DNA from: a virus
IMG/VR virus record: IMGVR_UViG_3300042296_000700
Coordinates: 43,128 to 107,127 of that record
DNA length: 64,000 nt
Reading direction: 5' to 3' (one strand)
Under the pieces are notes generated by a model. That model was not told the DNA's origin, searched no databases, and was given only the letters and a program-made list of their open reading frames with translations. The position numbers and the translations under genes were made by a program. Positions 42,428 through 53,514 of this stretch are shown piece by piece (the stretch's first letter is position 1; each line of letters starts with the position of its first letter).

Positions 42428-45139
42428 ATGGGGAAAATATCGCGGTTAACACGGCTGCTCATATTCATACCTGTAGCAGTAATGGCATGGGTCGTACCCC
42501 CTATTTCCTCTGTCCACGCAACAGGATATCCCGAAGACCAAAACTGGGAAGCCGTCACCTATGGGGACGGAAAATTTGTTGCTGTTGCCTCATCTGGTAA
42601 CGGTAACCGTGTGATGACGTCAACAGATGGCGACTACTGGGTTTCAAGAACTTCTGCTTCCGACAGCAACTGGCAAGGGATTACATACGCCGACAATCAG
42701 TTTGTTGCAGTTGGCTCAAATGCGGTCATGACCTCGCCTGACGGTGTTACGTGGACATCAAGAACTGCACCAACAGGAGAATGGCAAGCAATCACGAACT
42801 GTGGCGGTCTTTTTGTTGCTACCGCGACTTGGGGGAGTAGTTATGTAATGTCTTCCACGGATGGTGTTGAATGGACATTGCGCACTCCCGCCTATGGATG
42901 GTCACATGATGCGGTTGCCTGTAGTGCAGAAGTTCCACGGTTTGTTTCCGTGTCTCAGTTCGGTAGAGCATGGTCTTCCGCTAATGGCACTACTGGCTGG
43001 TCTACTCAAAACCCTGGTGCAATTGTAGATATCCGAACAGTTGCGTTTGGCAATGGTCGCTTTACATGGCTTGAGTACAGCACAAACTCGGGAAATAGAT
43101 ATGGTGGTTACTCCACGAACGGATTGAACTGGTCTGCTGGAATTGTTCCATCTAATCAATGGAAGTACATCACCTACGGCGGAGATAAATTTATTGCGGT
43201 AGCGGAAGGCGGATTAAATTCCCGTTCTGCTTATTCAACTGATGGCGCGAACTGGACGCTAGGTTCTGGGGTTCCGAATAACTCGTGGCAAGGTGTTGCT
43301 TATGGGGCTGGGAAATATGTTGCTGTAGCAAACTCTGGAACAGACAACAGGGTTATGACTTCTACGGATGGTCAATCATGGGAGAGTTTGTCTGTCACGC
43401 CACCTCCGTACTTTAATGCGGTCACAAACTTGACGGCTGTTGCCAACGCAGATGGAAGCGTTGACCTTGATTGGGATGCGCCAACGTCAAGCAATGTTGA
43501 TATCTACGCCTACGCGGTTACGTTCTATGACCTTGACGAAATTGACGGTACCACCTCTGGCGGTTGGGGGGTTTGGACTAACCAAGGAACTACTTACTCA
43601 CTGGGTGAATGGATGTTCTCTGGAGGCAACCCCGTAACTACTGGATTCGGACCCGTTCGTTTTGGTATCAAAGCGGGAAATCAAAGTTGTTTCTCTAACG
43701 AAGGTGTGGGTCCATGCGTTTACGGACCCGAAACCACTGTTGATGTAACGGTTCTTGACCCAACTCCACCTTCAACTACAACAACTGAACCTGAAACAAC
43801 TACGACCACTCAACCAGAACCAACCACTACTACTCAACCAGAACCAGAAATTACTCAACCAGAAACAACTACAACAGAGCCAGAAACTGTTGTAACCATT
43901 CCAGAAACCACGACTACCGTTCCAGAATCACCGCCTTCAGGAACAACAACAACCGTTCCATTAGAGGAGGAAACGACAGTTGAGACACCCACGAACACGG
44001 ATAATTCCGAAGATACAGAATCCACCACCTCGCTACCACAATATGCCCCAGAACAAGAGGCAACAACGGATGAAACGCCGATAGTTGTTCCCGAAGATAC
44101 GCAAGACGCAGCCGATACTGCGGTTGCAGACATTTTTGACGGTCCTATGTCAGACGACAAACTCGCGGACGCTGTTGATGATTTGGTTGCTGACGCTGAA
44201 ACACCTGAAGAACTAACGGCGGTTGTTACTGCGCTTCTTGACCAAGAACTATCGGATGAACAGTTCTCTACCGTTATTGATTCTGTTTTCTCTGAACCTT
44301 TATCTGATGAAAATTTTGCTGCTGCTATAGACGCTGTGTTTGAAGACCCGACTCAACTATCGGAAGCACAGTTTGAGGATGCAGTTGCCGCAGTGTTTGA
44401 TGCACCTCTTTCTGATGAGCAGTTCCAAGACGCCGTTGCAGCAGTCTTTGAAGACACCGAGTCTCTGAGTGACGAGCAGTTTGATACCGCAGTACAGGCA
44501 GTCTTTGATGAGCCTCTAAGTACAGAGCAATTCGCTGAAGCCCTTAGTGCAGTCTTTGATGAACCTATTTCTGACGATAAATTTGATGCGATTATTGATG
44601 CTGTTTTGGATGAACCAATTTCCGATGAGCAATTTGAGGAACTGGTTAATGTCTTGGAATCTGACACAGTTACTGAGGAGCAGGTTTCGGCTGCTGTTGA
44701 CTCGGTTATTGAAAATGGGGTTACGGAAGACCAAGCCGTTGACCTCGCTACGAGCGAAAAAGTTTTGCAAAGTATTGACGGTGAGCAGGCAGCAGAAATC
44801 TTTGATGCTGTTGATATCTCAAATGTAAACCCAGAAGAGGCAGCGCAACTGGTTGCAGCGGTTCAAGACGCCCCAACCGAGGTTAGGGAATCTCTGGAAT
44901 CTGAAATTAACGTTTTTGACGGAGCCATTGATATCTATGTTCCGCTCGGCTCTGGGGTTGACGTCGGCACACGTCGCGTCATTGTTGCTGCTGCTGGTGT
45001 ATTATTTGTAGCACCAACTATTATGCCTATTACTCCAACAGCCCCATTAAATGGTAGTGGTAATAATAATCCATCTCCAAATGGTGGCGGAGGTGCTTCG
45101 GTGTCAACAGAACCACGCAGAAGGGTTAGAGGAAAATGA
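42428..45139 (+). CDS. Secreted/membrane-anchored protein: signal peptide, beta-propeller repeats, FN3, Pro/Thr linker, acidic helical repeats, C-terminal hydrophobic segment
   Basis: W..V.YG.GKFVAV repeats; TTTTEPE linker; FD.PLSDEQF..AV.AV repeats. Confidence 0.75.
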   Translation: MGKISRLTRLLIFIPVAVMAWVVPPISSVHATGYPEDQNWEAVTYGDGKFVAVASSGNGNRVMTSTDGDYWVSRTSASDSNWQGITYADNQFVAVGSNAVMTSPDGVTWTSRTAPTGEWQAITNCGGLFVATATWGSSYVMSSTDGVEWTLRTPAYGWSHDAVACSAEVPRFVSVSQFGRAWSSANGTTGWSTQNPGAIVDIRTVAFGNGRFTWLEYSTNSGNRYGGYSTNGLNWSAGIVPSNQWKYITYGGDKFIAVAEGGLNSRSAYSTDGANWTLGSGVPNNSWQGVAYGAGKYVAVANSGTDNRVMTSTDGQSWESLSVTPPPYFNAVTNLTAVANADGSVDLDWDAPTSSNVDIYAYAVTFYDLDEIDGTTSGGWGVWTNQGTTYSLGEWMFSGGNPVTTGFGPVRFGIKAGNQSCFSNEGVGPCVYGPETTVDVTVLDPTPPSTTTTEPETTTTTQPEPTTTTQPEPEITQPETTTTEPETVVTIPETTTTVPESPPSGTTTTVPLEEETTVETPTNTDNSEDTESTTSLPQYAPEQEATTDETPIVVPEDTQDAADTAVADIFDGPMSDDKLADAVDDLVADAETPEELTAVVTALLDQELSDEQFSTVIDSVFSEPLSDENFAAAIDAVFEDPTQLSEAQFEDAVAAVFDAPLSDEQFQDAVAAVFEDTESLSDEQFDTAVQAVFDEPLSTEQFAEALSAVFDEPISDDKFDAIIDAVLDEPISDEQFEELVNVLESDTVTEEQVSAAVDSVIENGVTEDQAVDLATSEKVLQSIDGEQAAEIFDAVDISNVNPEEAAQLVAAVQDAPTEVRESLESEINVFDGAIDIYVPLGSGVDVGTRRVIVAAAGVLFVAPTIMPITPTAPLNGSGNNNPSPNGGGGASVSTEPRRRVRGK

Positions 45140-47397: not shown

Positions 47398-47640
47398 ATG
47401 TCAGAACTTGCATCAAGGTTAATGAGATTAGATGCCGAGCAAAATCAACCATGCCCTGTAACAAAACTTCTCAATTCACTAGATGGTGAAACATCAGAAG
47501 TTTTAAAAAGAGTAATGGATGGTAGGGCATCTACGCGAGAAATACATAGTGAACTTACTGCTGGTGGATACAGGATAGGTAGAGACACAATAGCCGCACA
47601 TCGCAACGGCTGGTGCCGCTGTCAAGGAGAAACCAAATGA
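47398..47640 (+). CDS. Small Cys/His (Zn-binding) HTH-like protein
   Basis: CPV...HRNGWCRC; coupled to the phosphoesterase. Confidence 0.55.
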   Translation: MSELASRLMRLDAEQNQPCPVTKLLNSLDGETSEVLKRVMDGRASTREIHSELTAGGYRIGRDTIAAHRNGWCRCQGETK

Positions 47641-48884
47641 GTAAGAAACCAACGACATTGGCAGCCCGTCTTGCAGCGGTAGAAAATAAAGCAGAACATG
47701 AGGATGATGTTAAAAGTCGCAAGACTCCGCCAGGTTGGGAACCTGGTGTTATCTGGGATGGAAAAACTGGAACTATCACAACTGACACAATCTATGAGAC
47801 TCCAGAAGATTGGTCAGATTTATTACGTGCTCGCGGTTTAGACCCAGAGAAGTACGAAATTGTTGGAGACACAATCAAATGGTGTTCCTACGATGGCTGG
47901 AAACGAGAGAGCCAAGAGGACACTGCAACGAGTGCTATCTGCTACTCGTTCAAAGCAGAGATTCGCTTGAAGTCAAAGAACCGTTATAGCGGTGATTTGG
48001 AGGCGTTATATCACGACGTTCGCAAGAAGAAGAAGGGTGCTAAAGTCGCCCCAACTGGTGACAGTACTTTTGTAGTTGCTCTAAGCGACTGGCAAGTCGG
48101 AAACAGAGATGGTGGCGGAGTAGAGCGTCAAGCCGAAAAAATCGCCACTCTCGTAGACGCAATTCCCCAGCGTATTGCGGATTTGCGCCGTGCAGGCAAC
48201 AAAATCGGACATATTGTTATTGCTGGATTAGGTGACCTTTGCGAAGGAACTTGCGGACATTATCCAGCACAGCAATTCCGAATTGAGTTAGACCGACGCG
48301 AACAACTCAAACTTGTCCGTCGTGGAGTCCGAGACATCATCATGGCTTGTGCACCGTTAGCGGAAAAGGTAACAGTGACCGCAGTAGGCGGAAACCATGG
48401 CGAGAACCGTGGCTTAACTGGCAAAGCATTCACAACTACTGGCGACAACGACGATGTAGCAATCTTTGAACAGATTGCCGAAATCCTTTCAATCAACCCA
48501 GAGGTTTATGGGCATGTCGGATTCAGACTTCCGCTAGAACGCCTTACTGTTTCGTTAAATCTGTCTGGACATAATGTCGCATTCACGCACGGACACCTAT
48601 CCAAAGCAAGTGGTAACGCTGCGCAATCAGTATGGAACTGGTGGAAAGACCAGACTTTAGGTCGCGCCCACGCAGGAGTAGCCGACGCAGACATCCTTAT
48701 CACAGGGCATTATCACCACTTGAACGTTAAAGAGCAGGAAGGACGCGCCGTTTTTGTTTGTCCAAGTCTCACATCTGTTGGTGAATACTTCCAAGATGCC
48801 TATGGAGTGAGAACCCGTGAAGGGACATTGTCAATTCTTATCTCTGAAGAAAACGGGTGGGGCGAACTCCACCTTATTAACTGA
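47637..48884 (+). CDS. Calcineurin-like metallophosphoesterase (Mre11/SbcD-like)
   Basis: SDWQ, GLGD, GGNHG, THGH, TGHYHH motifs. Confidence 0.85.
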   Translation: MSKKPTTLAARLAAVENKAEHEDDVKSRKTPPGWEPGVIWDGKTGTITTDTIYETPEDWSDLLRARGLDPEKYEIVGDTIKWCSYDGWKRESQEDTATSAICYSFKAEIRLKSKNRYSGDLEALYHDVRKKKKGAKVAPTGDSTFVVALSDWQVGNRDGGGVERQAEKIATLVDAIPQRIADLRRAGNKIGHIVIAGLGDLCEGTCGHYPAQQFRIELDRREQLKLVRRGVRDIIMACAPLAEKVTVTAVGGNHGENRGLTGKAFTTTGDNDDVAIFEQIAEILSINPEVYGHVGFRLPLERLTVSLNLSGHNVAFTHGHLSKASGNAAQSVWNWWKDQTLGRAHAGVADADILITGHYHHLNVKEQEGRAVFVCPSLTSVGEYFQDAYGVRTREGTLSILISEENGWGELHLIN

Positions 48885-48891
48885 GGCGACC

Positions 48892-49284
48892 ATGGCAAAA
48901 GAGGAAACTGAAGTTGAACGCAAGATAGCCCACATTGAATCCTTGATGCACAAGGACTATGCGGGTTACATTGAATGTGACCACGGCTGGGATGAACTCA
49001 TCATCAAATGCCATGAGGAACTGATAGCACTAGACCCCAACTATGTGCTTATACAAATTAAACAGAAGTTTGGTGGTCTTCGCTACTACTTTGAAACAGA
49101 GGCAGACAACAGAATACGCCTCAAAATGTATGAAGTAACAGGGAGATACGAGGCGCTATCACTCAAAACTTGTGAAGTCACAGGCGAAGCAGGCATCCTC
49201 ATGAAACATCAAGGACAATACTTTACAGTCAACCCCGACTACGCCCCAGACGGAGCAGTGGAAGTAAACCGTGATGGACAATGA
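48892..49284 (+). CDS. Conserved phage hypothetical protein
   Basis: GW..LI, QIKQKFGGLRYY, TCEVTG. Confidence 0.65.
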   Translation: MAKEETEVERKIAHIESLMHKDYAGYIECDHGWDELIIKCHEELIALDPNYVLIQIKQKFGGLRYYFETEADNRIRLKMYEVTGRYEALSLKTCEVTGEAGILMKHQGQYFTVNPDYAPDGAVEVNRDGQ

Positions 49285-49432
49285 AGAATACGAAAGCGTA
49301 GAAGAAACCCTACGCATCATGGCTGACGTCATGAACAAAGAAGCCGTGCAATTCAACATTGCCCCAGAGTTCCTACAAGAAGTAGCCGACGAAATCGCCA
49401 ACCTCAAACGACAGTTAGCCGAAAAATCGTGA
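49274..49432 (+). CDS. Small hypothetical protein (not in ORF track)
   Basis: Manual translation MDNEEYESVEETLRIMADV...LQEVADEIANLKRQLAEKS; overlaps both neighbours. Confidence 0.5.
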   Translation: MDNEEYESVEETLRIMADVMNKEAVQFNIAPEFLQEVADEIANLKRQLAEKS

Positions 49433-49638
49433 ACGACACAGCAGACATCATCCACAGAGAACCGAACTACCGTTGGGCAGTCATTGTACAGGAACCCCTA
49501 GAAGAATGGGGAACCCCCGAATTCCTAGTCGTCAAAGGCGACGGATTCAAATATACGGCAGTAGCCAGAACAGACTTCCTAGCAGAAGCCGAAGAAATGG
49601 CAACAGCCCTCAACTACTGGGAAACACGCCCACTGTAA
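49429..49638 (+). CDS. Hypothetical protein
   Basis: GTGA overlap with the upstream ORF. Confidence 0.5.
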   Translation: MNDTADIIHREPNYRWAVIVQEPLEEWGTPEFLVVKGDGFKYTAVARTDFLAEAEEMATALNYWETRPL

Positions 49639-49713
49639 CCCTATGAACAAAGCGCCGCATTCCTCCTCCACGTACCCAAATGCTGGATTGTCCTATATAC
49701 GGAGACACTACTG

Positions 49714-50337
49714 ATGACGACGATTGTGGGTATTCAGGGGGATGGTTTTGCTTTGCTTGCGACGGATAGTCGTATCTCTAGTTTTGATGAGAAGGGTACT
49801 GCGTATCAGTATACGACTTTGGGTGGGGGGTCTAGCAAACTTGCTTATAACGGGAAGTATCTGTTAGGTGCAGCAGGGGATGTGAGAGCAATTAACATTT
49901 TGCATCATGCTTTCCATCCGCCGTTGTGTGCTCTGACTCTTAAAGGGAAACGGTTGGATACTTTTATTACAACCAAATTCATTCCTGCTTTACGTCACTG
50001 CTTTGAAGAACAGGGGTATGCGGCTCCTAACGATAAGGAGAACAGTCATATCGCTGAGCATGATTCAACAATCATCGCCGTCATCAACGCAACCATTTAC
50101 ATCATAGATGGTGACTACTCATGGACAAACGACGCCACAGGACTATACGCAGCAGGCACAGGGTCAAGTTACGCACTAGGCGCACTACAAGCACTCAACC
50201 ACAAAAACCCCACACCCCAACAAGCCAAAACAATCGCACTCAAAGCACTCAACATCGCAGCCAAATACGACCCCTACACAGGGGCACCACACCACACATA
50301 CCTGCAAGAACACAACCGAAACAGCACCCAACAATGA
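49714..50337 (+). CDS. Proteasome beta-subunit/HslV-like Ntn protease
   Basis: N-terminal MTTIVG (Thr nucleophile), TDSR, SKL, GAAGD, GTGSSYALGAL. Confidence 0.8.
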   Translation: MTTIVGIQGDGFALLATDSRISSFDEKGTAYQYTTLGGGSSKLAYNGKYLLGAAGDVRAINILHHAFHPPLCALTLKGKRLDTFITTKFIPALRHCFEEQGYAAPNDKENSHIAEHDSTIIAVINATIYIIDGDYSWTNDATGLYAAGTGSSYALGALQALNHKNPTPQQAKTIALKALNIAAKYDPYTGAPHHTYLQEHNRNSTQQ

Positions 50338-50855
50338 CACACCCAAACCAAATAAACTTAACCGATATACAGGGAATACCCCCCACCCCACAGACATGGT
50401 ACGACCAAGCCAACTGCAAAGGGAAAACCCACCTCATGTTCCCAAAAGAACACAAAGACATCACATACATCAAACAAGCACGCAACATCTGCAAACAATG
50501 CACAGTCAAAGAACAATGCCTCACCACCGCACTCCAATACCCAGCAATAGACATGCACGGAGTATGGGCAGGACTCACCAGCAGACAACTAGCAACAGAA
50601 CAAAAACGCAGAGGCATCAAAGCCACCCGCCCATCACTAGCCCAAATGTTCCCCGCTACCCACAACGCACCCCGCACAAATCGCAAAACAAAAGCCCACC
50701 AAACTCAACAGGCACAGGAACACAATCCGAACGACCACACGGATTCAACACCCTCTCCCCAGCAAGATACGCACGCAACACAGAACCAGCATCAGGAAGA
50801 ACCCTCCCATCAACAAGACGAGGCAACCCCCGACCCTCACGAACAGCAGACATAA
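50334..50855 (+). CDS. whiB: WhiB-family transcription factor (3' extension uncertain)
   Basis: W...ANC...F...AR.ICKQC.V.EQCL..AL...HGVWAG; start at ATGA overlap 50334. Confidence 0.88.
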   Translation: MTHPNQINLTDIQGIPPTPQTWYDQANCKGKTHLMFPKEHKDITYIKQARNICKQCTVKEQCLTTALQYPAIDMHGVWAGLTSRQLATEQKRRGIKATRPSLAQMFPATHNAPRTNRKTKAHQTQQAQEHNPNDHTDSTPSPQQDTHATQNQHQEEPSHQQDEATPDPHEQQT

Positions 50856-50997
50856 CCACAACCGACAACCACTGCTGCAAAGACACACCCTCCGCCGCAC
50901 ACAAATCAATCACAGCATTCTTATCCGCACCAGACAACACAAACTCCATACGATAAGAAACATCAAGATTCCTAGCCCGCTCAGGAACCCTCGGCAT
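50656..50997 (-). CDS. Ribbon-helix-helix-like protein with C-terminal Cys cluster
   Basis: K......A.EGVSLQQW pattern; PCGRSDC...CDLC. Confidence 0.5.
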   Translation of the reverse strand: MPRVPERARNLDVSYRMEFVLSGADKNAVIDLCAAEGVSLQQWLSVVVMSAVREGRGLPRLVDGRVLPDAGSVLRAYLAGERVLNPCGRSDCVPVPVEFGGLLFCDLCGVRCG

Positions 50998-51151
50998 CAC
51001 GCCTCACCAACGTCGTCACATACTCAGTCAACGTCATGTCATAACCATCAGCCAACGAAACCATCAAATTTTTAAGTTCGCCGTCTATTTTGAGGGTGAG
51101 GGTTGTTTTGTGTTTGGTTGTTGTTTGGGGTGGGCGTCCGTTGCGTTTCAT
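50981..51151 (-). CDS. Ribbon-helix-helix DNA-binding protein
   Basis: GRPP...TLTLKID.ELK..M...A....MTLTEYV..LV. Confidence 0.7.
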   Translation of the reverse strand: MKRNGRPPQTTTKHKTTLTLKIDGELKNLMVSLADGYDMTLTEYVTTLVRRDAEGS

Positions 51152-51579
51152 TGGTAGGTCTCGTTCCATTGTTTCGTATAGATTTGTATGAAGTGTTCTC
51201 TGTCTGAGTTTGTGTGCAACGCGTAGCCGCCTACCGTTTTGATGGCTTGTTGTAGAACAGGATGCAAATTGGCGGGGGTGTAGTTCCCTGAGTCTAGTTG
51301 TGAGGCGAGGTCACGGTAGATTGCCCATGCTTCGTGTGGGGTTGGGGCGAGGGTGTCGGTGTGCATGTCTCGGACACGACGGTATACGGTGCCTGCTCTG
51401 GGCATGTAGGTGTCTTCTCTGGCTATGACGTCTATAGCAGTGTGGCATTCAGTGGCGTCAAGTTCTCCGATGATTCTCCACCAAGCGTTATACGTCGCCT
51501 TAGGGGCACCAGTGTTAGCCAACTGGTTCCAATGCGCGAGCACACGGTCAACTATCTCTACACATTCTTCCTTAGTCAT
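51148..51579 (-). CDS. Replicative helicase loader/inhibitor-like (G39P-like) protein
   Basis: MTKEEC..I, AW..I, Y.P, P.PHEAW, ..VGG, F...Y pattern. Confidence 0.55.
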   Translation of the reverse strand: MTKEECVEIVDRVLAHWNQLANTGAPKATYNAWWRIIGELDATECHTAIDVIAREDTYMPRAGTVYRRVRDMHTDTLAPTPHEAWAIYRDLASQLDSGNYTPANLHPVLQQAIKTVGGYALHTNSDREHFIQIYTKQWNETYQ

Positions 51580-51958
51580 CTAAGAACCCTTTCGCACCTA
51601 AGTTACCGTCCGCTTCAGTGAGGTCACAGAACTTCTCAATATGGTCTGCGTCCCTGAAGATGAGTTCTAGGCTGTCATACCGTTTCTTGTTACGGTTCGC
51701 TCCCATATGGAAGGGTGACTTGGAACAGCCTGTGATTGCTTTCATGCAGTCGTCTATGCCGTAGTCGTGTATCGCTGCGCCGATGAAGAGTTTGCGCTTG
51801 TCATCCAACTTAGTTCTGCTAGATTTATTTGAACGCAGTGTGGTGACCCAGAAGTCAAACACTTTCTGGATGTCAGCATCAGCCACAGTTCTGCACTTGG
51901 CAGCCTGACCAACAGCGCGACCTTTTCTTACGGGTTCAGTAGAAGGAAGAGAGTCCAT
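51572..51958 (-). CDS. Phage replication-protein C-terminal-like domain
   Basis: VFDFW...KLDDKR...I......G.D....AI.G....F..G.N....YDSLE.IFR; start inferred 7 nt after TATACT. Confidence 0.55.
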   Translation of the reverse strand: MDSLPSTEPVRKGRAVGQAAKCRTVADADIQKVFDFWVTTLRSNKSSRTKLDDKRKLFIGAAIHDYGIDDCMKAITGCSKSPFHMGANRNKKRYDSLELIFRDADHIEKFCDLTEADGNLGAKGFLDD

Positions 51959-51965
51959 AGGTTTC

Positions 51966-51994
51966 AGTATACCCAGTTGGACCACATCAAGCAA
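51966..51994 (-). promoter_or_regulatory. SigA-type promoter for a leaderless transcript
   Basis: TTGCTT-N17-TATACT followed 7 nt later by ATG 51958. Confidence 0.55.
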
Positions 51995-52426
51995 TAGGAA
52001 GAAGAGACCAAATACGAGCAATACAATCCAAGTAGAAAAGAACTTGGAAGAACATCTTCATCAATAACCCATTTGAAGGGGGTCTGGGGGAAACTTTACG
52101 AATCCTCAAAACCTTTTCGGCCATGCAGTGGCTGACCCTCGTATCTGTCTGGGAATGAGAGTTCATTTGGTTTCGGCGCCGAATGAATTTGTTTACGCCA
52201 CCGTCGCTCTTGGGGAGAGACGATAACTATGCAGAACTGAAGATAGCAGCATGAGCCCCGCTCCGCAAGCATCTAAGCAACAAAAATAGACAAGGTGTAA
52301 TATTTGTTGCGGGACTGTCTATGTTATTCTTGACTAAGACCGCATGCCCCCCGTGCGGCTCTAAGGCGTTGTAGACGGGACGGGTATGTGAGAGTTCCTC
52401 GTCCCGTCTCCGCTTTAGCGGGGCTG

Positions 52427-52906
52427 TTACTCTGCCAGTGGTAGAAGGAACAGGCGGGACTCCCACATGATTCCGATGGCTGCGTATCCGATGACATCCA
52501 TAATGTTGTCTTCTATAGATTCGTTGTTGGGCTTTACGCCACCGTCAGGACTTGAGAGTAGGTTTTCTAGTCTTGCGACTTTGTCGTGCATTCTGACCAT
52601 GAGTCCTTGCCGCCCGAAGCGGCGGATGTTCTCGTGTCCGTAGTCGCGCTGCTTCCTTATGAGGGTCGCATGAACGTTGTCAATCGTTTGCGGGATGCCG
52701 CGCTTGATTGAGAGTTCTACTGCATCGCCGCCGATGACAGCCCACATTGCTGTGGCTTTCTGGAATCCTGCTGGCGCGTGGAATAGGTCGTCTATGAAAC
52801 CATCCAAATCGCTGCGTACTTGTAGGAGGTCAGCGCGAGGCTTCTTCCTTACTTGAGTGAAGATTCCGTCTAGTGCCCAACGTGCTGCTTCGTCCCATGT
52901 TTCCAT
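52427..52906 (-). CDS. Nucleotide modification-associated domain 1 (DUF1599-like) protein
   Basis: RKQRDYG.ENI, G..VRM.DK.ARL.NL, NESIED...D..GYA.I. Confidence 0.75.
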   Translation of the reverse strand: METWDEAARWALDGIFTQVRKKPRADLLQVRSDLDGFIDDLFHAPAGFQKATAMWAVIGGDAVELSIKRGIPQTIDNVHATLIRKQRDYGHENIRRFGRQGLMVRMHDKVARLENLLSSPDGGVKPNNESIEDNIMDVIGYAAIGIMWESRLFLLPLAE

Positions 52907-52952
52907 TTAGTATTTTTATCACATGGCTATACGCCACCGTCGTTACTTGCAA

Positions 52953-53261
52953 CTACTCTTCATCAAACTTTTTTGATGCTGCCAGTAGTGCCATCTGCAT
53001 CAGGTTGGACATCGCCATCGCTGCTGCTGTTGCTTCTCCGAACTCTTCTGCATTCCGTTCAATTGCACGTGCGAACTTCTCTTCTACGAAACGTTCGTTA
53101 TATAACACGACAATATTATCGTCTGTTAACTGGATGACGACTGGTCCGTCTTCGTCCATTGTTTCTGGGGGTGCGGTGATTACCGCGACATGCTGTCCTG
53201 TTTCTGGGTTTTCAAACCGAAACATTACTTCTGGGTCTTCGCTACCAAATGACATTTCCAT
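52953..53261 (-). CDS. Hypothetical protein
   Basis: AGGAG RBS; acidic ORF. Confidence 0.6.
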   Translation of the reverse strand: MEMSFGSEDPEVMFRFENPETGQHVAVITAPPETMDEDGPVVIQLTDDNIVVLYNERFVEEKFARAIERNAEEFGEATAAAMAMSNLMQMALLAASKKFDEE

Positions 53262-53313
53262 ATTTAATTCTCCTGTGTTTAAGTTTACAGCGGGTGGCTA
53301 TACGCCACCGTCA

Positions 53314-53514
53314 TTACTTGCGAATGATTTCCCAGTCTTCTTTTTTTGTGCATCCTCCTTCAAGGAAGTCTTGTAGTGCTTCTGCTGTTCCGCACTCGGA
53401 GCAGATTTCTGTTTTGTTGTCGGTTCGTGAGATTGCACCAGGGTATTCGCCTGGTTGAAGATTGTTGGGAATCCAGTTGTCGCAACACCGTGGACATATG
53501 TTTGGGATTTTCAT
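53314..53514 (-). CDS. Small Zn-ribbon protein
   Basis: CPRC...YPGAISRTDN.TEICSECG. Confidence 0.65.
   Translation of the reverse strand: MKIPNICPRCCDNWIPNNLQPGEYPGAISRTDNKTEICSECGTAEALQDFLEGGCTKKEDWEIIRK

What the first reader, a model, noticed from the sequence alone, without database searches (positions are those of the whole stretch)
49190..51430. Abrupt G/T versus A/C strand-composition flips that ignore gene boundaries and coding strand
Seen: the + strand is A/C-rich at about 49190-49680, G/T-rich at 49714-50050, extremely A/C-rich at 50070-51066 and G/T-rich again at 51068-51430. Inside the single protease gene, 38 of the first 39 codons after Met end in G/T, while 53 of the last 55 end in A/C. 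The A/C block runs on through + strand whiB and minus-strand ORFs, and the 51067 flip falls mid-gene, so codon or transcription bias cannot explain it. Established: C>T plus A>G on one strand is the signature of prolonged single-strandedness. Inference: fixed sites where one strand is repeatedly exposed or resynthesised (origin, nick, resection or priming sites); replication genes are adjacent.
Basis: partly seen in the sequence, partly recalled or inferred. Interest (0 to 1): 0.75.

Follow-up and report, generated by a model that had tools for sequence, protein, structure and literature searches.

The report
Strand-skew switch zone in an actinophage
In a 2.3-kb stretch of this freshwater phage, next to its replication genes, nearly every freely variable DNA letter is A/C and then, from one base to the next, G/T; the pattern is real and inherited, its edges move between related phages, and it looks like the scar of a one-strand DNA repair or recombination process, not of gene expression.

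Summary
HslV has 38/39 G/T-ending codons, then 53/55 A/C-ending ones (P about 1e-11 and 1e-12 with amino acids held fixed). The + strand reads A/C (49190-49700), G/T (49714-50065), A/C (50066-51067), G/T (51068-51477).

It is not an assembly chimera. Seven related lineages from independent metagenome assemblies show the same G/T, A/C, G/T order around HslV-WhiB. It is not codon optimisation or transcription bias either. First and second codon positions and synonymous Leu first positions follow the skew. One block crosses convergent genes. The same gene (g114) is G/T-coded in some lineages and A/C-coded in others.

The switch points differ between lineages by up to about 500 nt and share no motif. 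The A/C-to-G/T switch is always sharp, with tracts fading over 0.4-1 kb on both sides, as if a process starts there.

Best reading (0.35): a recombination or replication-start hotspot, filtered by the actinobacterial host's NucS/EndoMS, which rejects only G-T, G-G and T-T mismatches. Strand-specific mutation at an origin is nearly as likely.

Closest known: GRINS (Nivina 2021), but this zone is single-copy and in a phage. This scan has noted similar mosaics in archaea and giant phages.

The parts
49190..49700 (.). Block A: + strand moderately A/C-rich. Covers the g130 3' end, g53 (49271-49432 +), g69 (49429-49638 +) and the spacer before HslV.
   Evidence: Third-position K fraction is 0.21 in g53 and 0.17 in g69, rising leftward to 0.34 (g130) and 0.44 (exonuclease). 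GC skew is -0.14 and TA skew -0.36.
49665..49713 (+). Upstream A/C-to-G/T switch in the spacer before the HslV start codon. It holds a TCCACG-type motif shared by the skewed clade.
   Evidence: G/T-ending codons begin at HslV codon 1 in W, L083, L056, L126, L067 and L093. Motif CCTCCACGTACCC lies at 49665-49677, with variants in L002, L007, L056 and L067. Unskewed relatives have a TTGACA-type promoter in this spacer.
49714..50065 (.). Block B: + strand G/T-rich. Covers HslV codons 1-117.
   Evidence: Third positions are 38/39 G/T, then about 70% G/T up to codon 117.
50064..50067 (.). G/T-to-A/C switch inside HslV, at codon 117/118.
   Evidence: The best step is at column 117. K3 in the flanking 15 codons goes from 0.80 to 0.13. 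L083 flips at the same codon; L002 at about 40, L093 at 40, L056/L067 at about 88-109 and L007 at about 148.
50066..51067 (.). Block C: + strand extremely A/C-rich over 1002 bp. Covers the HslV C-terminus, WhiB, g114 and the RHH C-terminal half.
   Evidence: A 382, C 363, G 144, T 113; GC skew -0.43, TA skew -0.54. z = -15.9 against the amino-acid-preserving null.
51067..51068 (.). Main A/C-to-G/T switch, between two codons of the RHH gene. It is the lowest point of the contig-wide cumulative keto skew.
   Evidence: K3 in the flanking 15 codons goes from 0.07 to 0.93. The cumulative keto and TA skew minima lie at contig base 94195 = window 51068. L007 switches at the homologous codon.
51068..51477 (.). 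Block D: + strand G/T-rich. Covers the RHH N-terminal half and helicase-loader codons 35-143.
   Evidence: K fraction 0.69, GC skew +0.32, TA skew +0.43. The skew fades to the right.
49714..50337 (+). HslV/proteasome-beta-like Thr peptidase gene (207 aa).
   Evidence: Pfam PF00227 and PHROG 1040. 967 homologues; the protein is conserved along its whole length.
50334..50855 (+). WhiB gene. The conserved domain is residues 1-107; the remaining 66 codons overlap g114.
   Evidence: Pfam PF02467. Relatives align mainly to residues 1-107. The tail's second codon position is all A/C, which is the third position of g114.
50656..51000 (-). g114: a conserved gene for a small protein with an RHH-like N-terminus and a Cys-rich C-terminus (my reading of the sequence; no family hit).
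   Evidence: tblastn hits in 22 loci. Third positions are 98% G/T on its coding strand in W but 6-10% in L056/L067.
50981..51169 (-). Ribbon-helix-helix-like gene (62 aa) that spans the main switch. The RHH assignment is my reading of the sequence; no family hit.
   Evidence: Conserved in 22 loci. Codons 1-31 are A/C-ending and codons 34-62 G/T-ending.
51148..51579 (-). Helicase-loader-like gene.
   Evidence: PHROG 9804 and 2289.
51572..52021 (-). Replication-initiator (O-like / DnaD-like) gene.
   Evidence: PHROG 16167, 18020 and 10469.
47613..48884 (+). Recombination/repair exonuclease gene, just upstream of the skew zone.
   Evidence: PHROG 284, E = 1e-58; weak Pfam Metallophos_2 hit.

Best explanation
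The zone is the scar of a strand-polar DNA process. It starts at lineage-specific points, the sharp A/C-to-G/T switches at 51067/51068 and at about 49700. It runs outward for 0.4-1 kb on both sides and leaves A/C on whichever strand has its 3' end facing the switch. I think the most likely process is repeated single-strand exchange at a DNA-end or replication-start hotspot beside the replication genes. Examples are recombination between co-infecting or concatemeric phage genomes, or recombination-primed replication. The exchange would be filtered by the actinobacterial host's NucS/EndoMS mismatch endonuclease. NucS rejects only G-T, G-G and T-T mismatches. An incoming strand can therefore replace a resident G or T with A or C, but not the reverse. 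Over many rounds this drives the incoming strand's sense to A/C, which amounts to keto-to-amino biased gene conversion. At a break the two 3' tails are opposite strands, so the bias flips sign exactly at the break. Shown here: the pattern, its level (DNA, not codons), its polarity, its sharp source-like switch and its moving edges. Inferred: the hotspot, the strand exchange and the role of NucS.
For: (1) The bias acts on bases. Codon positions 1 and 2 shift with position 3: g114 has K1/K2/K3 of 0.70/0.61/0.98 in W and 0.38-0.40/0.37-0.40/0.06-0.10 in L056/L067. Synonymous Leu first positions follow too: CTA 64 against TTA 14 in A/C blocks, and TTG 49 against CTG 6 in G/T blocks. (2) The axis is strictly keto against amino, and G and T are treated alike. 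Minor-base residues are 4.8% G and 8% T in A/C blocks, and 6.5% A and 15% C in G/T blocks. In blocks where W and L002 share the skew, differences are almost only A<->C: 22 of these against 1 class-changing transversion, with 0-3 transitions. In the unskewed exonuclease gene the transversion ratio is 23:24. This matches NucS specificity. In M. smegmatis, oligos that made G-G, G-T or T-T mismatches were rejected more than 500-fold, and all other mismatches were accepted (PMC11551767). In vitro the enzyme cuts G/T, G/G and T/T but not C/A (PMC6159521). Loss of NucS raises homeologous recombination (PMC8228993). (3) Source-like shape. In 7 lineages aligned on the main switch, K goes from about 0.30 to 0.71 within 100 nt and fades over 0.6-1 kb on each side. 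The A/C-to-G/T steps are large (0.74-0.90 over 40 codons). The G/T-to-A/C steps are weaker and mostly gradual (0.26-0.75). (4) Directional change is fast. Between W and L002, 68% of synonymous third sites differ in HslV 1-117, and 44 of 45 transitions are G/T in W against A/C in L002. The background in the exonuclease gene is 35%. (5) Context: the replication-initiator, helicase-loader and exonuclease genes are adjacent. WhiB and the nearest named phage, Actinomycetia phage DSL-LC01, point to an actinobacterial host. NucS is highly conserved in Actinobacteria and Archaea (PMC8228993).
Against: The host is unknown, so NucS in it is assumed. The contig, which is 73% complete, has no NucS, RecT or ERF gene. 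I have no direct evidence of a break, nick, origin or recombination hotspot at the switches, and found no motif, iteron or hairpin there. Most related phages, including some with the same gene order (L004-6, L062, L048, L078, L040), show no skew although they are probably actinophages too. A clade-specific trigger must therefore be added. The G/T-to-A/C edge at 50065 is sharper in W, L083 and L093 than a fading tract predicts. Weak GRINS-type skews are reported in phyla that lack NucS (PMC8256042). NucS is known to work with the sliding clamp at forks, and its action on phage recombination intermediates is untested.
Confidence: 0.35

Rival explanations
1. Strand-asymmetric mutation at a replication origin or priming site. 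From the switch, the strand that runs 5'->3' outward becomes G/T-rich. One route is that its parental copy is exposed as single-stranded DNA and deaminated (C>T, A>G). The other is that the first kilobase of leading strand is made by an error-prone enzyme that favours G-T mispairs, as DNA polymerase I does at ColE1 origins (my own knowledge, not checked here).
For: The A/C-to-G/T polarity is the origin polarity. In Corynebacterium glutamicum the leading strand gains T and G (PMC6159521). The switch lies 80-500 nt beyond the helicase-loader and initiator genes. It is the contig-wide minimum of cumulative keto skew. The 0.4-1 kb tracts fade with distance. Only class-changing sites are affected.
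Against: There are no iterons or conserved sequence at the switch; the only AT-rich stretch is about 10 nt at the flip itself. The switch moves by up to about 500 nt between lineages. A second switch of the same polarity lies 1.4 kb away. A>G-type sites are as saturated as C>T-type sites, unlike deamination-driven skews. The bias ratio of 10-20 to 1 far exceeds the 2-4 to 1 measured for host replication. The replichore-scale argument fails: the contig is only 73% complete, and the large-scale skew follows gene orientation.
Confidence: 0.3
2. Transcription-linked asymmetry at two convergent operons. This could come from R-loops, from exposure of the non-template strand, or from transcription-coupled repair. 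The switch would mark where rightward and leftward transcription change dominance, and the 49700 switch would mark the HslV promoter.
For: The main switch always lies within about 500 nt of the point where the + and - operons meet, and in L056, L126 and L067 it lies exactly at the WhiB/g114 junction. The 49700 switch lies in a spacer where unskewed relatives carry a TTGACA-type promoter. Most skewed genes are A/C-rich on their coding strand.
Against: In W, L007, L093 and L002 the A/C block runs into minus-strand genes, so g114 and half of the RHH gene are coded with the opposite bias. The switch is sharp to within a codon inside a gene that must be transcribed across it. No conserved promoter or terminator lies at the switch. 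The contig shows no 5'-to-3' gradient across its genes. The sign for most genes is opposite to the classical C>T bias on the non-template strand.
Confidence: 0.12
3. Selection for the composition itself. Candidates are structure-free A/C-only RNA or DNA, Rho loading, avoidance of palindromes or restriction sites, or a slow-codon ramp followed by fast A/C-ending codons.
For: A/C-ending codons pair by Watson-Crick with a minimal tRNA set, and an A/C-only strand cannot fold. WhiB is A/C-coded in every skewed lineage.
Against: The same orthologue (g114, the RHH C-terminus, the HslV N-terminus) carries opposite biases in sister lineages. Amino-acid composition is dragged along. Leu first positions follow the skew. 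The blocks ignore gene and operon ends. The contig shows no ramp at gene starts.
Confidence: 0.08
4. Artefact: an assembly chimera, a sequencing error mode, or patches explained by amino-acid composition.
For: The contig is a metagenome assembly. One other A/C patch (43758-44067) is indeed only a Thr/Pro/Glu-rich linker.
Against: The pattern recurs in independent assemblies from many samples (L083, L002/3, L084-87, L093, L007, L056/L126, L067, L008-10/L104). The reading frames stay open and the proteins stay conserved across every flip. The amino-acid-controlled null is rejected.
Confidence: 0.01

Closest known systems
[quoted passage not shown] 2021, PNAS, PMC8256042)
   Same: Both have intense, positively correlated GC and TA skews, both signs on one strand within 1 kb, and abrupt changes. 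In both the skew is strongest at third codon positions yet shifts amino-acid use (Gly/Val/Cys/Trp against Pro/Thr/His/Gln). GRINS are commonest in Actinobacteria, are often found in replication, recombination and repair genes, and have an unknown mechanism. Here: |GC| 0.29, |TA| 0.40, r = 0.91.
   Different: GRINS are defined as duplicated regions (>80% identical to another copy) that spread by gene conversion inside one gene cluster. This zone is single-copy in the contig. It lies in a phage and sits at one syntenic place across a clade. It has an ordered G/T, A/C, G/T layout around a sharp switch whose position drifts.
Replication-associated strand asymmetry (leading strand rich in G and T, switching at the origin)
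   Same: The same keto/amino axis and the same polarity at the A/C-to-G/T switch. Replication-initiation genes are adjacent.
   Different: That asymmetry spans replichores and is weak, with mutation ratios of about 2-4 to 1 in C. glutamicum. Here the tracts are 0.4-1 kb, the ratio is 10-20 to 1, two switches lie 1.4 kb apart, and no origin sequence features were found.
Heavy/light strand asymmetry of animal mitochondrial DNA (deamination of the displaced strand)
   Same: One strand is driven to G/T at silent sites, with a comparable amplitude. This comparison rests on my own knowledge, not on a paper read here.
   Different: In mtDNA, C>T is clearly stronger than A>G and the skew follows time spent single-stranded over kilobases. 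Here both transition classes are equally saturated, and the sign flips within one codon.
GC-biased gene conversion at recombination hotspots in eukaryotes
   Same: As a working analogy: a repair bias in heteroduplex DNA that acts like selection and recodes 1-2 kb around hotspots, with hotspots that move between lineages. This rests on my own knowledge.
   Different: The axis here is keto/amino and strand-polar, not GC/AT. The proposed filter is NucS/EndoMS, not the eukaryotic repair systems credited with the GC bias. Nothing of this is shown for phages.

Membership tests
GRINS (PMC8256042) | Mean absolute GC and TA skews above 0.15 in 150-nt windows | tested here: met
   Mean |GC| is 0.29 and mean |TA| is 0.40 over 49190-51480, against 0.11 and 0.14 in the rest of the contig.
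GRINS (PMC8256042) | GC and TA skews correlated with each other | tested here: met
   Pearson r = 0.91 in the zone and 0.12 elsewhere.
GRINS (PMC8256042) | Length above 500 bp | tested here: met
   Block C is 1002 bp and the whole zone is about 2.3 kb.
GRINS (PMC8256042) | Duplicated: more than 80% DNA identity to another region of the same cluster or genome | tested here: not met
   blastn of the zone against the 107-kb contig returns only the self-match. The contig is 73% complete, so a copy in the missing part is not excluded.
Replication origin | Strand-skew switch with leading-strand (G/T) polarity | tested here: met
   A/C to G/T on the + strand at 51067/51068, which is also the contig-wide minimum of cumulative keto skew.
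Replication origin | Initiator-binding repeats (iterons) and an AT-rich unwinding element at the site | tested here: not met
   No direct-repeat family lies near the switch. The only repeated box (TACGCCACCGTC) starts at 52194 and is spaced 340-395 nt apart. The only AT-rich stretch is about 10 nt at the flip, and nothing is conserved at the switches of other lineages.
Replication origin | Replichore-scale skew domains on both sides | tested here: inconclusive
   Third-position G/T is raised (0.61) for the minus-strand arm to the right, but only for 1-4 kb to the left. This is confounded with gene orientation, and the contig is incomplete.
Single-strand deamination asymmetry (mtDNA type) | C>T bias clearly stronger than A>G bias on the exposed strand | tested here: not met
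   On the G/T-gaining strand, T makes up 85-95% of pyrimidine sites and G makes up 92-93.5% of purine sites.
Transcription-associated strand asymmetry | Sign of the skew follows the transcribed strand | tested here: not met
   Block C covers + and - strand genes. g114 is G/T-coded in W and L007 and A/C-coded in L056 and L067. Switches fall inside genes.
Diversity-generating retroelement | Reverse transcriptase, a template/variable repeat pair, and adenine-specific changes | tested here: not met
   The zone has no repeat pair. The changes are all four class-changing types, not adenine-specific. None of the genes searched in or beside the zone matched a reverse transcriptase.
NucS/EndoMS-filtered strand exchange (proposed here) | Bias strictly keto against amino, with G and T treated alike and class-preserving changes free | tested here: met
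   The specificity of NucS comes from PMC11551767 and PMC6159521.
NucS/EndoMS-filtered strand exchange (proposed here) | Host encodes NucS/EndoMS | not testable with these tools
   The host is unknown. No NucS domain was found in the contig. The genome-contig scan returned only two MAG contigs, labelled Cyclobacteriaceae and Gammaproteobacteria, probably mis-binned phage DNA.
NucS/EndoMS-filtered strand exchange (proposed here) | Recombination tracts or DNA ends that start at the A/C-to-G/T switches | not tested
   This needs read-level population data or ends mapping.

The most novel reading that the evidence does not exclude
The keto-only mismatch specificity of NucS/EndoMS (G-T, G-G, T-T) turns any strand-polar DNA exchange into keto-to-amino biased gene conversion. 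This one rule would explain the phage zone here. It would also explain the unexplained GRINS of Streptomyces, and the A/C versus G/T mosaics that this scan has noted in archaea, which are also NucS carriers. The sharp A/C-to-G/T switches would then mark recurrent DNA ends or initiation points.
Probability: 0.3. Interest if true: 0.85.

Novelty: new variant of a known kind. Interest (0 to 1): 0.66.

Why it matters
Intense, correlated GC and TA skews that recode working genes were described in 2021 (GRINS), with no mechanism. This phage clade offers a simpler natural case. There is one single-copy locus at a fixed place in the gene order. It has a clear polarity and a razor-sharp switch. Sister lineages have moved the edges, and close relatives with the same genes lack the skew. 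That combination makes the cause testable in three ways: by population genetics (mutation bias against biased conversion), by mapping ends, origins and transcripts, and by genetics in nucS-deleted actinobacteria. If the NucS link holds, a mismatch-repair blind spot would be a directional force. It would rewrite codons and amino acids around recombination or replication start sites in Actinobacteria, Archaea and their viruses. Such skews could then be used to locate those sites from sequence alone.

Tried and rejected
1. Assembly chimera or sequencing artefact: rejected. The pattern recurs in independent assemblies and the proteins stay intact.
2. Amino-acid composition: rejected for this zone. 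It does explain the 43758-44067 patch.
3. Codon optimality or a translation ramp: rejected.
4. Only W and L007 share a site, at a homologous codon.
5. Large inverted repeat or cruciform centred on 51067/51068: none; the fold z-score is 0.56.
6. The 13-nt inverted repeat that brackets block B (49712-49724 and 50074-50086): noted, but probably chance, and an inversion is incompatible with the intact HslV frame.
7. Promoters and terminators: only two promoter-like hits, fewer than in shuffles. One minus-strand hit at 50128-50101 lies near the 50065 edge and was not pursued.
8. Known RNA families: none.
9. I first read the cumulative-skew minimum and maximum as lying half a circle apart. I withdrew this when one search showed that the record is linear and 73% complete; the large-scale skew also tracks gene orientation.
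10. Single origin of the skew on the HslV tree: undecided. The skewed rows form two starred groups with unsupported deeper branches.
11. Host identification through genome contigs: failed.
L083 (94% protein identity) was found by the metagenome scan instead.
13. Nucleotide search of the phage collection found nothing. The nearest named phage is only 49.5% identical in HslV.


Full report
**What is there**

The window is the last 64 kb of a 107,127-base IMG/VR virus record. The record is classed as linear and estimated 73% complete. I write K for G+T and M for A+C on the + strand.

- The zone reads M (49190-49700), K (49714-50065), M (50066-51067), K (51068-51477). A weak M patch follows at about 51478-51620.
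- Block C has 382 A, 363 C, 144 G and 113 T.
- With amino acids held fixed and the contig's own codon usage, P = 1.5e-11 and 1.6e-12. The four blocks deviate by z = -7.4, +6.9, -15.9 and +7.2.
- GC and TA skews correlate at r = 0.91 inside the zone and 0.12 outside it.

**Gene map**

| Gene | Coordinates | Strand |
|---|---|---|
| Exonuclease | 47613-48884 | + |
| g130, g53, g69 (small genes) | 48892-49638 | + |
| HslV-like peptidase | 49714-50337 | + |
| WhiB | 50334-50855 | + |
| g114 | 51000-50656 | - |
| RHH-like gene | 51169-50981 | - |
| Helicase-loader-like | 51579-51148 | - |
| Initiator-like | 52021-51572 | - |

- g114 is a real gene, conserved in 22 related loci.
- The WhiB frame runs 66 codons past its conserved domain and overlaps g114.
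- Block C therefore covers two + strand genes and one and a half minus-strand genes.
- The 51067/51068 switch lies between two codons of the RHH gene, and the 50065 switch lies at HslV codon 117/118.
- HslV is conserved along its whole length against hundreds of homologues, so the frames are intact.

**At what level the bias acts**

- Third positions reach 90-98% of one class, and positions 1 and 2 move the same way.
- g114 has K1/K2/K3 of 0.70/0.61/0.98 in this phage, 0.38-0.40/0.37-0.40/0.06-0.10 in L056 and L067, and about 0.46/0.42/0.36-0.59 in unskewed relatives.
- Synonymous first positions of Leu follow as well: CTA 64 against TTA 14 in A/C blocks, and TTG 49 against CTG 6 in G/T blocks.
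- Purine and pyrimidine sites are about equally saturated. The minor base is 4.8% G and 8% T in A/C blocks, and 6.5% A and 15% C in G/T blocks.
- The contig's genes show no general gradient from start to end.

This rules out tRNA or codon optimisation, a translation ramp and amino-acid composition. It points to a pressure on bases, one strand at a time.

**Relatives**

- No phage record matches the zone at the DNA level. The nearest named phage is Actinomycetia phage DSL-LC01, with 49.5% identity in HslV and the same HslV-WhiB order but no skew in HslV.
- Scans of IMG/VR and JGI metagenomes gave 160 loci with HslV relatives.
- Seven lineages show the same extreme pattern at the same place in the gene order: W/L083; L002, L003, L084-L087; L093; L007; L056/L126; L067; L008-L010/L104.
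- All other loci stay within K fractions of 0.31-0.65 in 200-nt windows. These include several with the same convergent gene order: L004-6, L062, L048, L078 and L040.
- WhiB is A/C-coded in every skewed lineage, but the edges differ.
  - The K-to-M edge in HslV lies at about codon 40 (L002 group, weak; L093, sharp), 88-109 (L056, L126, L067), 117 (W, L083) or about 148 (L007). It is absent in L008.
  - The M-to-K switch lies at the WhiB/g114 junction (L056, L126, L067), in mid g114 (L008), three quarters into g114 (L002 group), at one RHH codon (W and L007), or further into RHH (L093).
- The switches share no motif.
- On an HslV tree the skewed rows form two well-supported groups, but the deeper branches are unsupported. 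One origin or several cannot be decided.

**Dynamics**

- W and L002 differ at 35% of synonymous third sites in the unskewed exonuclease gene.
- In HslV 1-117, where W is G/T and L002 is A/C, they differ at 68%. 44 of 45 transitions go the same way.
- In blocks where both are A/C there are 0-3 transitions, and nearly all differences are A<->C (22, against 1 class-changing transversion). The exonuclease gene has 23 class-preserving against 24 class-changing transversions.
- The directional change is therefore several times faster than background, and the filter is strictly keto against amino.
- W and L083 (3.5% DNA difference) share the HslV edge codon. Their differences cluster around that edge.

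**Shape of the main switch**

- Aligned on the M-to-K switch, all seven lineages jump from K of about 0.30 to about 0.71 within 100 nt.
- The M tract fades over 0.6-1 kb to the left, and the K tract over 0.4-1 kb to the right.
- M-to-K steps are large, 0.74-0.90 over 40 codons. The flanking 15 codons go from 0.07-0.13 to 0.73-1.00.
- K-to-M steps are smaller and mostly gradual, 0.26-0.75.
- The M-to-K switches thus look like sources, and the K-to-M edges look like places where tracts fade or meet.
- A second source-like switch lies in the spacer before HslV (about 49700). There the skewed clade shares a TCCACG-type motif, and unskewed relatives carry a TTGACA-type promoter.
- At 51067/51068 I found no iterons, no conserved promoter or terminator, no unusual hairpin and no known RNA.
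- The switch is the contig-wide minimum of cumulative keto skew. I withdraw my first reading of a half-circle geometry, because the record is incomplete and the large-scale skew tracks gene orientation.

**Mechanism**

The polarity can be stated simply. On both sides of a source, the strand whose 3' end faces the switch is A/C-rich, and the strand running 5'->3' away from it is G/T-rich. Three families of process give this polarity:

- leading-strand bias from an origin;
- annealing of incoming single strands at the lagging side of forks leaving an origin;
- invasion by the two 3' tails of a DNA break.

What makes the keto/amino axis special in an actinobacterial setting is NucS/EndoMS.

- It cuts G/T, G/G and T/T mismatches but not C/A (PMC6159521).
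- In M. smegmatis it rejects incoming oligonucleotides that make those three mismatches more than 500-fold, and accepts all other mismatches (PMC11551767).
- Its loss raises homeologous recombination (PMC8228993).

Worked through base by base, an incoming strand can change a resident G or T to A or C, but never the reverse. Changes within a class pass freely. This predicts three things seen here: A/C on the incoming strand's sense, G and T treated alike, and free A<->C or G<->T changes. The polarity also fits, with a sharp flip at a break or initiation point. It would further link this zone to GRINS, which are tied to gene conversion in Streptomyces, and to the archaeal mosaics noted earlier in this scan.

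This is inference. The host is unknown. No NucS, RecT or ERF gene is in the contig. No hotspot is shown. The restriction to one clade needs an extra trigger. I give it 0.35.

The rivals:

The moving switches, the two sources 1.4 kb apart, the lack of origin features and the equal saturation of A>G and C>T sites all weaken the deamination form.
- Transcription-linked asymmetry: 0.12. It fits the nearness to the operon convergence point and to the HslV promoter spacer. It does not fit the blocks that cross into opposite-strand genes or the mid-gene sharpness.
- Selection on composition: 0.08.

**Comparison with what is known**

- The closest description is GRINS (PMC8256042). All skew criteria are met, but the defining duplication is not.
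- I found no paper describing such zones in phage genomes, and no mechanistic follow-up of GRINS.
- Earlier notes of this scan report similar mosaics in archaea and two giant phages. Those notes gave me the GRINS lead, and I read that paper myself. I tested two of their specific ideas here, a GGCC-type anchor and a gene-anchored sawtooth, and found neither.

**Limits**

- No read-level data were available, so mutation bias and biased conversion cannot be separated.
- The host is not identified.

Noticed in passing
window 50656-50855: The WhiB reading frame runs 66 codons past its conserved domain (relatives align mainly to residues 1-107). It overlaps the 3' end of the convergent gene g114 by 200 nt. 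The T-poor A/C block contains no stop codon, so the skew itself seems to have lengthened the protein.
   Followed up: partly
contig bases 1-3745 (locus L082; outside the window, at the contig start): This is a second, weaker skew zone. Minus-strand genes, including a ParB-like gene, have A/C-ending codons (third-position G/T 0.17-0.29). The skew is strongest at the contig end and fades by about 4 kb. A tRNA-Pro (UGG) lies at 287-361. The zone touches the contig end, so its left edge is unknown.
   Followed up: partly
window 43758-44067: The A/C-rich patch inside the 903-aa gene is a Thr/Pro/Glu/Gln-rich low-complexity linker. Codon positions 1 and 2 carry the bias and position 3 is mixed. It is a different thing from the skew zone.
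   Followed up: yes
window 49712-49724 and 50074-50086: A 13-nt inverted repeat (12 of 13 complementary) sits exactly at the two edges of the G/T block in HslV. It is probably chance, and an inversion is excluded by the intact frame.
   Followed up: partly
window 49665-49677; L002, L007, L056 and L067 upstream of HslV: A TCCACG-type motif lies 40-65 nt before the HslV start in the skewed lineages. Unskewed relatives (L062, L048, L040) have a TTGACA-type promoter in this spacer instead.
   Followed up: no
L004 5966-6445 (minus strand): The unskewed relatives L004-6 carry an extra gene between WhiB and g114, at the operon convergence point. By eye it looks like a macro domain. This phage lacks it.
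   Followed up: no
window 52188-53321: The box TACGCCACCGTC occurs four times in one orientation, 341-395 nt apart, just beyond the initiator-like gene. These copies are too far from the switch and too widely spaced to be classical iterons of an origin at 51068.
   Followed up: no
L001 3001-3400 (Actinomycetia phage DSL-LC01): A mild A/C-rich patch (G+T 31-34%) coincides with a single small gene of unknown function in this otherwise unskewed relative.
   Followed up: no
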